A DNA stretch of 64,000 nucleotides from the NCBI RefSeq assembly GCF_009914755.1, contig NC_060925.1; one strand, given 5' to 3'. A program made the translations under genes and the position numbers. Each line of letters opens with the position of its first letter. Position 1 is the stretch's first letter. The stretch comes from the human T2T-CHM13v2.0 reference genome, Homo sapiens. The notes below the pieces were generated by a model. That model did no database searches and was not told the DNA's origin. It saw only the letters and a program-made list of their open reading frames with translations. This document shows positions 29,243 to 59,560 of this stretch, piece by piece.

Positions 29243-29752
29243 CTAGACTTCCCAGTCTACAGAATTTGAGATCTTTCTGTTGAAAAATAAGAAATGTTGG
29301 GGGGTGGCGCCAAGATGGCTGAATAGGAACAGCTCCCGTCTACAGCTCCCAGCTTGAGCGACACAGAAGACGGGTGATTTCTGCATTTCCATCTGAGGTA
29401 CCGGGTTCATCTCACTAGGGAGTGCCAGACAGTGGGCGCAGGACAGTGGGTGCAGCACACCGTGCGCGAGACGAAGCAGGGCGAGGCATTGCCTCGCTCG
29501 GGTAGCGCAAGGGGTCAGGGAGTTCCCTTTCCTAGTCAAAGAAAGGGGTGACAGACGGCACCTGGAAAATCGGGTCACTCCCACCCTAATACCGCGCTTT
29601 TCCGACAGGCTTAAAAAATGGAGCACCACGAGATTATATCCCGCACCTGGCTTGGAGGGTTCTATGCCCACGGAATCTCGCTGATTGCTAGCACAGCAGT
29701 CTGAGATCAAACTGCAAGCCGGCAGCGAGGCTGAGGGAGGGGCGCCCGCCAT
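29243..29752 (-). CDS. L1 ORF0-like open frame (169 aa) reading out of the element into flank
   Basis: Begins MAGAPPSASLPACSLISDCCASNQRDSVG (ORF0 N-terminus); no stop until 29243; expression unknown. Confidence 0.45.
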   Translation of the reverse strand: MAGAPPSASLPACSLISDCCASNQRDSVGIEPSKPGAGYNLVVLHFLSLSEKRGIRVGVTRFSRCRLSPLSLTRKGNSLTPCATRARQCLALLRLAHGVLHPLSCAHCLALPSEMNPVPQMEMQKSPVFCVAQAGSCRRELFLFSHLGATPQHFLFFNRKISNSVDWEV

Positions 29753-30334
29753 TGCCCAGGATTGATTAGGTAAACAAAGCAGCGGGAAGCTCGAACTGGG
29801 TGGAGCCCACCACAGCTCAAGGAGGCCTGCCTGCATCTCTAGGCTACACCTCTGGGGGCAGGGCACAGACAAACAAAAAGACAGCAGTAACCTCTGCAGC
29901 CTTAAATGTCCCTGTCTGACAGCTTTGAAGAGAGCAGTGGTTCTCCCAGCACGCAGCTGGAGATCTGAGAACGGGCAGACTGCCTCCTCAAGTGGGTCCC
30001 TGACCCCTGACCCTTGAGCAGCCTAACTGGGAGGCACCCCGCAGTAGGGGCAGACTGACACCTCACACGGCCGGGTACTCCTCTGAGACAAAACTGCCAG
30101 AGGAATGATCAGACAGCAGCATTCACAGTTCACGAAAACCCGCTGTTCTGCAGCCACCGCTGCTGGTACCCAGGCACACACGGTCTGGAGTGGACCTCTA
30201 GCAAACTCCAACAGACCTGCAGCTGAGGGTCCTGTCTGTTAGAAGGAAAACTAACAAACAGAAAGGACATCTACACCAAAAACCCATCTGTACGTCACCA
30301 TCATCAAAGAACAAAAGTAGATAAAATCACAAAG

Positions 30335-31351
30335 ATGGGGAAAAAACAGAGCAGAAAAACTGGAAACTCTAAAAGGCAGAGCGCCTCTCCTCCTCCAAAG
30401 GAATGCAGCTCCTCACCAGCAACGGAACAAAGCTAGATGAAGAATGACTTTGATGAGCTGAGAGAAGAAGGCTTCAGATGATCAAACCACTCCGAGCTAC
30501 GGGAGGAAATTCAAACCAAAGGCAAAGAAGTTGAAAACTTTGAAAAAAATTTAGACGAATGTATAACTAGAATAACCAATACAGAGAAGTGCTTAAAGGA
30601 GCTGATGGAGCTGAAAGCCAAGGCTCGAGAGCTACATGAAGAATGCAGAAGCCTCAGGAGCCAATGCGATCAACTGGAAGAAAGGGTATCAGTGATGGAA
30701 GATGAAATGAATGAAATGAAGCGAGAAGGGAAGTTTAGAGAAAAAAGAATAAAAAGAAACGAGCAAAGCCTCCAAGGAATATGGGACTATGTGAAAAGAC
30801 CAAACCTACGTCTGATTGGTGTACCTGAAAGTGACGGGGAGAATGGAATCAAGCTGGAAAACACCCTTCAGGATATTATCCAGGAGAACTTCCCCAATCT
30901 AGGAAGGCATGCCAACATTCAAATTCAGGAAATACAGAGAATGCCACAAAGATATTCCTCAAGAAGAGCAACTCCAAGACACATAATTGTCAGATTCACC
31001 AAAGTTGAAATGAAGGAAAAAATGTTAAGGGCAGCCAGAGAGAAAGGTCGGGTTACCCACAAAGGGAAGCCCATCAGACTAACAGTGGATCTCTCGGCAG
31101 AAACTCTACAACCCAGAAGAGAGTGGGGGCCAATATTCAACATTCTTAAAGAAAAGAATTTTCAACTCAGAATTTCATATCCAGCCAAACTAAGCTTCAT
31201 AAGTGAAGGGGAAATAAAATACTTTACAGATAAGCAGATGCTGAGAGATTTTGTCACCACCAGGCCTGCCCTAAAAGAGCTCCTGAAGGAAGCACTAAAC
31301 ATGGAAAGGAACAACCGGTACCAGCCACTGCAAAATCATGCCAAATTGTAA
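30335..31351 (+). pseudogene. L1a ORF1p, disrupted
   Basis: ATG at 30335; premature TAG at 30434-30436 and TGA near 30479; C-terminal 248 aa open. Confidence 0.95.
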
Positions 31352-58400: not shown

Positions 58401-59325
58401 CGTTACACCTAAAACCATAAAAACCCTAGAAGAAAACCTAGGCATTACCATTCAGGACATAGGCATGGGCAAGGACTTCATATCTAAAACACCAAAAGCA
58501 GTGGCAACAAAAGCCAAAATTGACAAATGGGATCTAATTAAACTAAAGAGCTTCCACACAGCAAAAGAAACTACCATCAGAGTGAACAGGCAACCTACAA
58601 AATGGGAGAAAATTTTCGCAACCTACTCATCTGACAAAGGGCTAATATCCAGAATCTACAATGAACTCAAACAAATTTACAAGAAAAAAACCAACAACCC
58701 CATCCAAAAGTGGGCGAAGGACATGAACAGACACTTCTCAAAAGAAGACATTTATGCAGCCAAAAAACACATGAAAAAATGCTCACCATCACTGGCCATC
58801 AGAGAAATGCAAATCAAAACCGCAATGAGATACCATCTCACACCAGTTAGAATGGCAATCATTAAAAGGTCAGGAAACAACAGGTGCTGGAGAGGATGTG
58901 GAGAAATAGGAACACTTTTACACTGTTGGTGGGACTGTAAACTAGTTCAACCATTGTGGAAGTCAGTGTGGCGATTCCTCAGGGATCTAGAACTAGAAAT
59001 ACCATTTGACCCAGCCATCCCATTACTGGGTATATACCCAAAGGACTATAAATCATGCTGCTATAAAGACACATGCACACGTATGTTTATTGTGGCACTA
59101 TTCACAATAGCAAAGACTTGGAACCAACCCAAATGTCCAACAATGATAGACTGGATTAAGAAAATGTGGCACATATACACCATGGAATACTATGCAGCCA
59201 TAAAAAATGATGAGTTCATGTCCTTTGTAGGGACATGGATGAAATTGGAAACCATCATTCTCAGTAAACTATCGCAAGAACAAAAAACCAAACACCGCAT
59301 ATTCTCACTCATAGGTGGGAATTGA
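55499..59325 (+). pseudogene. L1b ORF2p, frameshifted
   Basis: [16 protein letters not shown] start; FADD intact; broken into 299/102/386/477-aa track ORFs; ends IFSLIGGN. Confidence 0.95.
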
Positions 59326-59560
59326 ACAATGAGAACACATGGACACAGGAAGGGGAACATCACACTCTGGGGCCTGTTGTGGGGTGTGGGGAGGGGGGCG
59401 GGATAGCATTGGGAGATATACCTAATGCTAGATGATGAGTTAGTGGGTGCATTGCACCAGCATGGCACATGTATACATATGTAACTAACTTGCACATTGT
59501 GCACATTTACCCTAAAACTTAAAGTATTAAAAAAAAAATAAAAAAGAGTGGTGAGCCTTG

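What the first reader, a model, noticed from the sequence alone, without database searches (positions are those of the whole stretch)
29300..59543. Two independently inserted L1s 24 kb apart share many private mutations: patchwork interlocus gene conversion
Seen: L1a and L1b have different TSDs and different subfamily markers (5'UTR segment, 3'UTR CTAAATGAC vs CTAGATGAT, CCTGAC vs CCTGAG). They nevertheless share non-consensus bases at 29761/53975 (UTR), 30903/54996 (ORF1 NLAR>NLGR), 31834/55917 (T>K), 31854/55937 (GDFN>GDFD), 32311/56393 (F>C), 32339/56421 (K>N), 32498/56580 (E>D), 33013-14/57096-97 (I>T), 33129/57212 (G>S), 33372/57455 (L>M), 34077/58159 (W>R) and 34757/58822 (T>A), plus silent ones. 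The changes cluster in near-identical blocks: about 32284-32531 has one mismatch and four shared variants, and about 32957-33230 has two mismatches. The minus-strand L1 in this window has consensus residues (GDFN, GKFI, MQGW, FPLK). Established: the GDFN Asn is an active-site residue of APE-type endonucleases and L1 shows cis preference, so a common active parent carrying these changes is unlikely. Inference: repeated short-tract exchange after insertion, i.e. local concerted evolution of dead L1s.
Basis: partly seen in the sequence, partly recalled or inferred. Interest (0 to 1): 0.8.

Follow-up and report, generated by a model that had tools for sequence, protein, structure and literature searches.

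The report
Neighbouring dead L1s swapped short patches
Two (probably three) separately inserted, inactive L1 retrotransposons lying about 24 kb apart share a set of rare mutations that is best explained by patchy DNA copying between them (non-allelic gene conversion), a known process of which this is a clear L1 example.

Summary
L1a (29300-35492) and L1b (53527-59543) are independent full-length insertions. They have different target-site duplications and different 5' ends. L1b lacks a 125-bp 5'UTR segment, and the two differ at 17 lineage-diagnostic sites.

All 13 claimed shared bases are present. Whole-genome exact-word counts show a truly private core:
- 31834A+31854G occurs only in L1a and L1b.
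- 33013C+33014C occurs in 2 copies, against 3,984 copies of the usual word.
- 32311G+32339C occurs only in L1a, L1b and a third, older L1 (L1d) 23 kb downstream, outside the window.
- 32498C, 33372A, 33129A and 30903G each have only 1-14 unlinked carriers.

Three claimed sites are not private: 29761 (4 unlinked carriers), 34077 (228 copies) and 34757 (138 copies).

The rare shared variants form at least 4 blocks interleaved with diagnostic differences, so no single tree fits. They are mostly amino-acid-changing (ORF2 11:2) and lie in mismatch-poor stretches (P=0.005). They lean towards G/C (P=0.035). Fragment-length tests alone are not significant.

Best reading: non-allelic gene conversion among neighbouring same-strand L1s (about 0.8). 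This is a known kind of process. Ape orthologues and human haplotypes were not available, so the reading is not yet confirmed by an outgroup.

The parts
29282..29299 (+). 5' target-site duplication of L1a (GAAAAATAAGAAATGTTG)
   Evidence: Read directly. The same 18 bases recur at 35493-35510.
29300..35492 (+). L1a: full-length, dead L1 of the older lineage state. It keeps the 125-bp 5'UTR segment and has the 'old' state at 17 diagnostic sites.
   Evidence: ORF1 spans 30335-31351 and ORF2 spans 31415-35260 in L1a coordinates. The ORFs are interrupted.
30074..30198 (+). 125-bp 5'UTR segment present in L1a, L1d and 2 of 8 unlinked panel copies. It is absent from L1b and 6 of 8 unlinked copies.
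   Evidence: It corresponds to the published 129-bp ZNF93-site deletion of the youngest L1PA families (passage of 10.1101/429563). The equivalence is my inference from its position.
35493..35510 (+). 3' target-site duplication of L1a
53510..53526 (+). 5' target-site duplication of L1b (AAGAGTGGTGAGCCTTG)
   Evidence: It recurs at 59544-59560.
53527..59543 (+). L1b: full-length, dead L1 of the younger lineage state. It lacks the 125-bp segment and has the 'young' state at 17 diagnostic sites.
59544..59560 (+). 3' target-site duplication of L1b
30878..30909 (+). Candidate tract 1 (L1b 54971-55002): 32 bp without mismatch around 30903G (ORF1 A190G)
   Evidence: The 30-mer with 30903G is in 16 copies genome-wide, 14 of them unlinked. 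This is the weakest of the four blocks.
31785..31885 (+). Candidate tract 2 (L1b 55868-55968): 101 bp without mismatch. It holds 31834A (T140K) and 31854G (N147D). L1b also has the 'old' base at diagnostic site 31836.
   Evidence: The 32-mer with both variants occurs only in L1a and L1b in the whole genome.
32284..32531 (+). Candidate tract 3 (L1b 56366-56613): 248 bp with 1 mismatch. It holds 32311G, 32339C, 32387G and 32498C. Its first ~100 bp (about 32262-32386) are also identical in the third partner L1d, which lies OUTSIDE the window at window-equivalent 77287-82786 (+). L1d is older, 5'-truncated and has its own target-site duplication.
   Evidence: The 40-mer with 32311G+32339C occurs only in L1a, L1b and L1d. 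The 32498C 36-mer is in 3 copies, 1 of them unlinked. The best unlinked copy scores 425 bits against 448 for L1a itself and 444 for L1b, about 5 mismatches by my conversion, among 40 scored of 1,244 candidates. For L1d.
32957..33230 (+). Candidate tract 4 (L1b 57040-57313): 274 bp with 2 mismatches. It holds 33013C+33014C (I533T), 33129A and 33145A.
   Evidence: The CC 32-mer is in 2 copies, against 3,984 copies of the usual TA 32-mer. The 33129A+33145A 40-mer is in 6 copies, 4 of them unlinked.
33304..33393 (+). Candidate tract 5 (L1b 57387-57476): 90 bp without mismatch around 33372A (L653M). No diagnostic site separates it from tract 4.
   Evidence: The 36-mer is in 6 copies, 4 of them unlinked.
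43886..48702 (-). L1c: older, minus-strand L1 lying between L1a and L1b. It was used as an outgroup and shows no clear sign of exchange.
   Evidence: Sites it shares exclusively with L1a (4 non-CpG) or with L1b (1 non-CpG plus 1 CpG) are within the background range.

Best explanation
After they had inserted independently, L1a and L1b exchanged DNA by non-allelic (interlocus) gene conversion. In at least one stretch the older L1d, 23 kb further downstream (outside the window, window-equivalent 77287-82786), took part as well. A break or nick in one copy was repaired using the neighbouring same-strand copy as template. This copied that copy's private, post-insertion mutations across, including the ORF2 N147D change. 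About 15-20% of the element was homogenised, in at least 4 separate patches (up to 7 if the untested sites are counted) of roughly 30-270 bp. The lineage-diagnostic differences between the patches were left intact.

Shown:
- The insertions are independent.
- The core shared variants are private to this locus genome-wide.
- The pattern along the element is a mosaic.
- The shared variants have a neutral spectrum.

Inferred:
- The repair mechanism.
- The direction of copying. L1a to L1b is suggested at 31836 and 35033, and L1d to L1a to L1b at 32311/32339.
- Whether there were many short events or a few long heteroduplexes with patchy mismatch repair.
For: (1) Independent insertions. The TSDs and 5' ends differ. 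L1d has its own TSD, and the DNA between the L1s shares only interspersed repeats.

(2) Different lineages. At 17 sites L1a has the state of the older copies and L1b that of the younger ones, and the 125-bp indel agrees.

(3) Private variant combinations, by exact whole-genome counts:
- 31834A+31854G: 2 of 2 copies are L1a and L1b.
- 33013C+33014C: 2 copies, against 3,984 copies of the usual word.
- 32311G+32339C: 3 copies, all local.
- The counting method does find large families when they exist: 565, 228 and 138 copies.

(4) No unlinked copy appears in more than one of the carrier lists, except one chr5 copy. When fetched, that copy shares 4 of 23 sites (29761, 29765, 33129, 33145).

(5) Pair-exclusive non-CpG sites number 11 for L1a-L1b, against 0-3 for 11 pairs of L1a or L1b with an unlinked copy.

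(6) Rare shared sites and diagnostic differences alternate in the order DDDDDDSDSSDDSSSSDSSSSDDDDDDD, giving 4 S-blocks.

(7) In ORF2 the shared variants are 11 non-synonymous to 2 synonymous. Master-lineage changes are 2 to 5 (Fisher one-sided P=0.022). The mutations therefore arose in a dead copy.

(8) In the ORFs, 100-bp bins holding shared variants carry 1.83 mismatches on average (12 bins), against 3.82 (38 bins); Mann-Whitney P=0.005.

(9) Shared variants run weak-to-strong 9:4, against 42:67 for unshared private changes (Fisher P=0.035; 10:4 and P=0.02 with one site later dropped). This fits GC-biased conversion.
Against: - Fragment-length evidence is weak. The longest mismatch-free run (163 bp) has permutation P=0.25, and the top-5 sum has P=0.008.
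- In a GENECONV-like test over 66 pairs, the best pair involving only L1a, L1b or L1d was L1a-L1d at P=0.107, and that run is not at the shared-variant block. L1a-L1b is not among the 15 pairs with the lowest P. No pair of any kind survives correction for 66 tests.
- Mismatch density within +-100 and +-150 sites of shared variants is not reduced (P=0.23 and 0.32). At +-50 it is P=0.04.
- Overall L1a-L1b distance (4.0%) is no lower than the distance of either to unlinked copies (3.6-4.9%).
- No private indel is shared: 0 shared columns, against 20 private indel columns in each copy.
Some untested sites (29665, 30014, 30631, 31086, 33449) may be the same.
- The polarising panel is small: 8 unlinked copies.
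- Only one genome was examined, with no outgroup and no read-level check.
Confidence: 0.8

Rival explanations
1. Sublineage signature. L1a and L1b descend from one minor source element that already carried the shared variants, and no DNA was exchanged after insertion.
For: Some shared variants are lineage-level:
- 29761A+29765A is in 4 unlinked copies.
- 34077C is in 228 copies.
- 34757G is in 138 copies.
- 31346T/31360A/31363G is in 565 copies.
- One chr5 copy shares both the 5'UTR pair and 33129A/33145A.
Against: - The core combinations occur in no unlinked copy.
- The best unlinked copies score 425 bits against 448/444 for L1a/L1b in block 32284-32531, and 477 against 495/486 in block 32957-33230. 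By my conversion that is about 5 and about 4 mismatches, among 40 scored of 1,244 and of 1,623 candidates.
- L1a and L1b differ at 17 diagnostic sites and the 125-bp indel, interleaved with the shared sites, so they cannot be sisters on any one tree.
- The shared changes are 11:2 non-synonymous in ORF2 and include N147D. By recalled knowledge of APE-type endonucleases, that is a catalytic-motif residue.
- Two of only two or three carriers lying 24 kb apart would be a chance of order 1e-5 (my arithmetic: 2 x 24 kb / 3.1 Gb).
Confidence: 0.05
2. Parent and daughter. The dead L1a, or a sibling, was mobilised in trans to give L1b, which inherited the shared mutations. L1b was later 'rejuvenated' in patches by conversion from unlinked young L1s, or was made chimeric by template switching during reverse transcription.
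For: - The shared variants are spread over 29.7-33.4 kb rather than confined to one spot.
- The overall mismatch density around them is only mildly reduced.
Against: - It still needs many conversion or switch events: at least 13 switches with all sites (my count from the site order), or at least 7 with the robust ones.
- It also needs a rare trans-mobilisation and a chance landing 24 kb from the parent.
- It does not explain why L1d, from a third and much older subfamily with its own TSD, shares 32311G+32339C.
- L1b keeps the young state at 17 of 20 diagnostic sites (counting 31327, 31836 and 35033 as homogenised).
Confidence: 0.05
3. Assembly or polishing cross-talk between paralogous L1 copies in this assembly.
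For: None from my calls.
Against: - The copies differ at 243 of 6,013 sites.
- They keep their own private bases within tens of bp of the shared ones, for example 30910 and 34079.
- Three separate loci would have to be affected at exactly the same rare bases.
- Inference: long accurate reads spanning unique flanks separate copies that are 4% divergent.
Confidence: 0.04
4. Parallel mutation at hot sites.
For: A few shared sites are CpG transitions that recur (31086 and 33145; 2 of 13 pair-exclusive sites). Single-site words have 1-14 unlinked carriers.
Against: - Many are transversions or double changes (C>A, T>G, G>C, A>C, TA>CC).
- The background for unlinked pairs is 0-3, against 11 observed.
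- The combinations are unique genome-wide.
Confidence: 0.01

Closest known systems
Non-allelic gene conversion between neighbouring Alu elements (Zhi 2007 and Aleshin & Zhi 2010, as summarised in PMC8230782 and PMC6598467)
   Same: In both cases independently inserted, selectively neutral retroelement copies share non-diagnostic mutations when they lie close together. Both give mosaics of subfamily-diagnostic and private sites. Both show dependence on proximity and identity (passages read).
   Different: - Here the elements are 6-kb L1s, not 300-bp Alus.
- The spacing is 23-24 kb, whereas the Alu effect is described as acting within about 10 kb.
- Three copies from three lineage stages are involved.
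- The tracts cover only a minority of the element.
Earlier reports of L1 gene conversion (Burton et al. [quoted passage not shown]
   Same: L1 copies whose sequence does not fit their insertion history are explained by conversion from another L1.
   Different: As I recall them, those cases concern replacement of whole or large parts of a copy, or young polymorphic elements. Here old dead copies exchanged several short patches with an identifiable neighbour as partner. I did not read those papers.
Concerted evolution of segmental or tandem duplicates
   Same: Exchange between paralogous sequences in direct orientation on one chromosome, with a hint of GC bias.
   Different: The partners here are not products of a DNA duplication. 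The flanks are unrelated and each copy has its own TSD. Homogenisation is slight: overall divergence remains 4.0%.

Membership tests
Non-allelic (interlocus) gene conversion between dispersed repeats | The partners are independent insertions, not copies made by DNA duplication | tested here: met
   Each of L1a, L1b and L1d has its own TSD. L1a and L1b start at different points of the 5'UTR. The sequences between the L1s share only interspersed repeats.
Non-allelic (interlocus) gene conversion between dispersed repeats | Derived variants are shared by the partners and absent from the rest of the family | tested here: met
   Whole-genome exact counts are 2, 2 and 3 copies, all local, for three variant combinations. 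The usual word at one of these places has 3,984 copies. The feature is not met for 29761, 34077 and 34757.
Non-allelic (interlocus) gene conversion between dispersed repeats | Phylogenetic incongruence along the sequence (mosaic pattern, four-gamete conflict) | tested here: met
   17 sites that are old in L1a and young in L1b, plus the 125-bp indel, alternate with rare shared sites. This gives at least 4 blocks.
Non-allelic (interlocus) gene conversion between dispersed repeats | Statistically long fragments of identity (the GENECONV criterion) | tested here: inconclusive
   - Longest run: P=0.25. Top-5 runs: P=0.008.
- Variable-site run test: not significant for L1a-L1b or L1a-L1d.
- Bin test in the ORFs: P=0.005.
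Non-allelic (interlocus) gene conversion between dispersed repeats | GC-biased transmission of the transferred variants | tested here: inconclusive
   Weak-to-strong versus strong-to-weak is 9:4 among shared variants and 42:67 among private ones, one-sided P=0.035. The numbers are small.
Non-allelic (interlocus) gene conversion between dispersed repeats | The pre-conversion state is seen in orthologous loci of outgroups, or tracts are polymorphic among haplotypes | not testable with these tools
L1 sublineage defined by a shared source element | The variant set recurs in many unlinked copies, and lineage markers agree among members | tested here: not met
   The core combinations have no unlinked carrier. 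L1a and L1b disagree at 17 diagnostic sites and one indel. The feature is met only for 29761/29765, 34077, 34757 and 31346-31363.
L1 sublineage defined by a shared source element | The changes accumulated under purifying selection on an active element | tested here: not met
   ORF2 shared variants are 11 non-synonymous to 2 synonymous, including N147D and I533T. Master-lineage changes are 2 to 5.
Segmental or tandem duplication | Homology extends into the flanks | tested here: not met
   Self-BLAST of the window and of 114 kb around it finds only the L1 bodies and other interspersed repeats.

The most novel reading that the evidence does not exclude
This roughly 55-kb stretch is a small concerted-evolution domain. 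Three same-strand L1s from three successive lineage stages are spaced about 24 kb apart: the 3' ends lie at 35492, 59543 and about 82786. They have repeatedly exchanged short, GC-biased tracts over millions of years, at distances beyond the ~10 kb range described for Alu.

If this is general, long-range exchange among dispersed L1s would:
- spread inactivating mutations such as endonuclease N147D between copies;
- bias divergence-based L1 ages;
- blur source-element tracing genome-wide.
Probability: 0.15. Interest if true: 0.6.

Novelty: new member of a known kind. Interest (0 to 1): 0.4.

Why it matters
L1 ages, subfamily assignment and source-element tracing all assume that each dead copy mutates on its own. 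This locus shows neighbouring L1s 24 kb apart passing private mutations to each other, including a change in the endonuclease catalytic motif. 'Shared private mutations' therefore need not mean a shared parent.

The locus also gives a concrete test for ape T2T assemblies and human pangenomes. These could time individual tracts, measure tract length and GC bias, and show how far apart dispersed repeats can still convert each other.

The process itself is already known from Alu elements, LTRs and gene duplicates, so this is a well-resolved example rather than a new mechanism.

Tried and rejected
- **Chance or hot-spot mutation.** Rejected on the control pairs (0-3 against 11) and the genome-wide counts.
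- **Subfamily consensus.** My first 4-copy panel listed 32 sites where L1a and L1b agree against at least 3 of the 4 unlinked copies; 23 of these were also absent from all 4 copies and from L1c. Pattern counts then showed that several are lineage-level. I removed them and kept only the tested rare ones.
- **Segmental duplication.** Rejected.
- **GENECONV-like longest-run tests.** These gave no significant fragment for the local pairs. The case therefore does not rest on them.
- **Extra L1a-L1d exchange.**
  - The 40-mer with 30854C/30865C/30868T is in 5 copies: L1a, L1d and 3 unlinked.
  - 32548A is in 11 copies including both.
  - My 33505G pattern did not cover L1d because of an adjacent L1d-private base.
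  - Overall this is suggestive only.
- **L1c (minus strand) as a partner.** Its exclusive sharing is at background level.
- **PRDM9-like 13-mer (motif recalled).** There are 4 matches in the window, one of them in the L1b 3'UTR. Of 100 shuffles, 2 reach that number, and nothing ties the matches to the tracts.
- **Earlier-findings store.** It was closed.
- **Literature.** The searches found no systematic study of conversion between neighbouring L1s in the held library. The phrases 'gene conversion between L1' and 'LINE-1 gene conversion' had 0 papers. 'L1 gene conversion' had 1 paper, where it appears only as a cited title. This does not show that none exists.
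Full report
**What is there**

A self-BLAST of the window finds two full-length plus-strand L1s. L1a is at about 29.3-35.5 kb and L1b at 53.5-59.5 kb, and they are 95.8% identical over 5,279 bp. There is also an older minus-strand L1 (L1c, 43886-48702, 90% identical to L1a) and older fragments.

L1a is flanked by GAAAAATAAGAAATGTTG at 29282-29299 and 35493-35510. L1b is flanked by AAGAGTGGTGAGCCTTG at 53510-53526 and 59544-59560. Their 5' ends start at different points of the 5'UTR. They are therefore separate retrotransposition events. L1a carries a 125-bp 5'UTR segment (30074-30198) that L1b lacks.

**The claimed sites**

All 13 coordinate pairs align with each other and carry the same base in L1a and L1b. 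L1c has the other base wherever it is present.
- ORF1: A190G.
- ORF2: T140K, N147D, F299C, K308N, E361D, I533T, G572S, L653M, W888R and T1109A.

The markers CTAAATGAC/CTAGATGAT (35363/59428) and CCTGAC/CCTGAG (34173/58255) are present. The latter pair lies in ORF2.

**Are the shared bases private?**

The window's own genome could be searched. Exact-word counts over all 3.1 Gb gave the following.

| Variant word | Copies genome-wide |
|---|---|
| 31834A+31854G | 2 (L1a, L1b) |
| 33013C+33014C | 2 (L1a, L1b); the usual TA word has 3,984 |
| 32311G+32339C | 3 (L1a, L1b and a third L1 at chr1:219,125,646) |
| 32498C | 3 (1 unlinked) |
| 33372A | 6 (4 unlinked) |
| 33129A+33145A | 6 (4 unlinked) |
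| 30903G | 16 (14 unlinked) |
| 29761A+29765A | 6 (4 unlinked) |
| 34077C | 228 |
| 34757G | 138 |
| 31346T/31360A/31363G (my own addition) | 565 |

The last four rows are lineage-level variants and cannot be counted as evidence.

No unlinked copy appears in more than one carrier list, except one chr5 copy. When fetched, it shares only 29761, 29765, 33129 and 33145, which is 4 of 23 sites.

BLAST searches with the two best blocks gave these scores:
- Block 32284-32531: L1a scores 448 bits, L1b 444 and the best unlinked copy 425. That is about 5 mismatches by my conversion, among 40 scored of 1,244 candidates.
- Block 32957-33230: 495, 486 and 477 bits, about 4 mismatches, among 40 scored of 1,623 candidates.

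**A third partner**

I fetched 50 kb of flanks. L1d lies at window-equivalent 77287-82786, on the plus strand. It is 5'-truncated, has its own target-site duplication, and is 7.2-7.5% from L1a and L1b. It is identical to L1a over about 32262-32386. That stretch includes 32311G and 32339C but not 32387G or 32498C.

The DNA between the three L1s shares only interspersed repeats, so this is not a segmental duplication.

**Lineage conflict**

I aligned L1a, L1b, L1c and L1d with 8 unlinked full-length copies. Four were taken from a similarity search. The other four are the unlinked carriers of the 5'UTR variant.

The copies fall on a ladder running from L1c and L1d, through two segment-bearing unlinked copies, then L1a, then L1b, to the youngest copies. 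At 17 sites L1a has the old state and L1b the young one, in agreement with the 125-bp indel.

A passage of 10.1101/429563 describes a 129-bp region, the ZNF93 site, deleted in the youngest L1PA families. I take the 125-bp indel to be that deletion, from its position.

The rare shared sites alternate with these diagnostic differences in the order DDDDDDSDSSDDSSSSDSSSSDDDDDDD. That gives four S-blocks when only the tested rare sites are used. With the untested ones included there are up to seven blocks and 13 switches, by my count from the site order. No single tree can hold both kinds of site.

**Against chance**

In the 12-copy panel L1a and L1b alone share 11 non-CpG and 2 CpG-transition sites. 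Eleven pairs of L1a or L1b with an unlinked copy share 0-3 non-CpG sites, mean 1.45. The Poisson tail is 4e-7, or 3e-4 at lambda 3.

**Where the mutations arose**

In ORF2 the shared variants are 11 non-synonymous to 2 synonymous. The 7 master-lineage changes in ORF2 are 2 to 5 (one-sided Fisher P=0.022). The shared changes therefore look like neutral decay of a dead copy, not changes carried by an active source. That this Asn belongs to the catalytic motif of APE-type endonucleases is recalled knowledge, not a result of any call.

**Tract signal**

Results here are mixed.
- Weak or negative:
  - The longest mismatch-free run between L1a and L1b (163 bp) is unremarkable (P=0.25), though the five longest together are long (P=0.008).
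  - A GENECONV-like run test on variable sites over all 66 pairs singles out no local pair.
  - Mismatch counts within +-100 or +-150 sites of shared variants are not reduced.
- Positive:
  - In the ORFs, 100-bp bins that hold shared variants have 1.83 mismatches (12 bins) against 3.82 (38 bins), P=0.005.
  - The block 32284-32531 has 1 mismatch in 248 bp with four shared variants.
  - The block 32957-33230 has 2 mismatches in 274 bp with four shared variants.
  - The block 31785-31885 has none in 101 bp. It holds two shared variants, and L1b has the old base at diagnostic site 31836.

The density of shared variants in the two large blocks is about 1.5%. This is close to the private-mutation density of one copy, as expected if a donor's private changes were copied whole. 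That is my arithmetic, and blocks chosen around the variants bias this comparison.

Three of 20 diagnostic sites look homogenised (31327, 31836, 35033). Candidate tracts sum to roughly 1 kb of 6 kb. Both figures point to about 15-20% of the element having been exchanged.

Shared variants lean weak-to-strong, 9:4 against 42:67 for private ones (P=0.035). This is a modest hint of GC-biased conversion. No private indel is shared.

**Conclusion**

The best-supported account is non-allelic gene conversion among neighbouring same-strand L1s after insertion. There are at least four patches between L1a and L1b, and at least one patch also involves L1d.

I cannot decide between many short events and a few long heteroduplexes with patchy mismatch repair. 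Donor and acceptor are only hinted at.

**Rivals**

- A shared source lineage is contradicted by the diagnostic-site conflict, the genome-wide counts and the substitution spectrum.
- A trans-mobilised dead parent still needs many exchanges and does not explain L1d.
- Assembly cross-talk is unlikely for copies differing at 243 of 6,013 sites, but it was not tested with reads.

**Comparison with what is known**

Passages of PMC8230782 and PMC6598467 describe non-allelic conversion among Alu copies. It is detected through shared non-diagnostic mutations and mosaic diagnostic patterns, and is strongest within about 10 kb.

PMC5640379 cites Burton et al. [quoted passage not shown] PMC8232201 and a 2026 preprint mention conversion among transposable element copies only in general terms.

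My searches found no systematic study of conversion between neighbouring L1s in the held library, which is not proof that none exists. Work on Ta-L1 conversion by Myers 2002 and Vincent 2003, and on break repair between LINEs by Tremblay 2000, is recalled and was not seen.

The case is therefore a new, well-resolved member of a known kind. Its notable points are the 23-24 kb spacing, the three partners from three lineage stages, and the transfer of an endonuclease-motif mutation.

Noticed in passing
outside the window, window-equivalent 77287-82786 (locus L010 and neighbours): This third plus-strand L1 (L1d) is nested in an older L1 fragment. It brings the 3' ends of the three L1s to 35492, 59543 and about 82786, a spacing of roughly 24.1 and 23.2 kb. 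I found no duplication that would explain the regular spacing.
   Followed up: partly
window 30850-30889 and L1d: L1a carries a three-site haplotype (30854C, 30865C, 30868T) otherwise seen only in L1d within the 12-copy panel. The 40-mer is in 5 copies genome-wide: L1a, L1d and 3 unlinked. This may be a second L1d-L1a tract.
   Followed up: partly
window 31295-31402 / 55379-55486: This is a 108-bp stretch with no L1a-L1b mismatch. In it L1b carries the haplotype 31346T/31360A/31363G, which is in 565 copies genome-wide and which all 8 unlinked panel copies lack. It could be a lineage polymorphism or another L1a-to-L1b tract. The question is unresolved.
   Followed up: partly
window 34077 and 34757: The variants 34077C (228 copies) and 34757G (138 copies) both create a CpG. 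They are far commoner genome-wide than single random changes at other sites (1-14 carriers). They may mark minor L1PA3-era sublineages.
   Followed up: no
window 29005-29747: The RefSeq 'enhancer' annotation supplied with the finding overlaps the 5' flank and the first ~450 bp of the L1a 5'UTR.
   Followed up: no
chr23 11,425,361 (-) and 11,428,481 (+) of the own genome: Two carriers of the 33372A word lie 3 kb apart on opposite strands. This suggests an inverted L1 pair or an inverted duplication.
   Followed up: no
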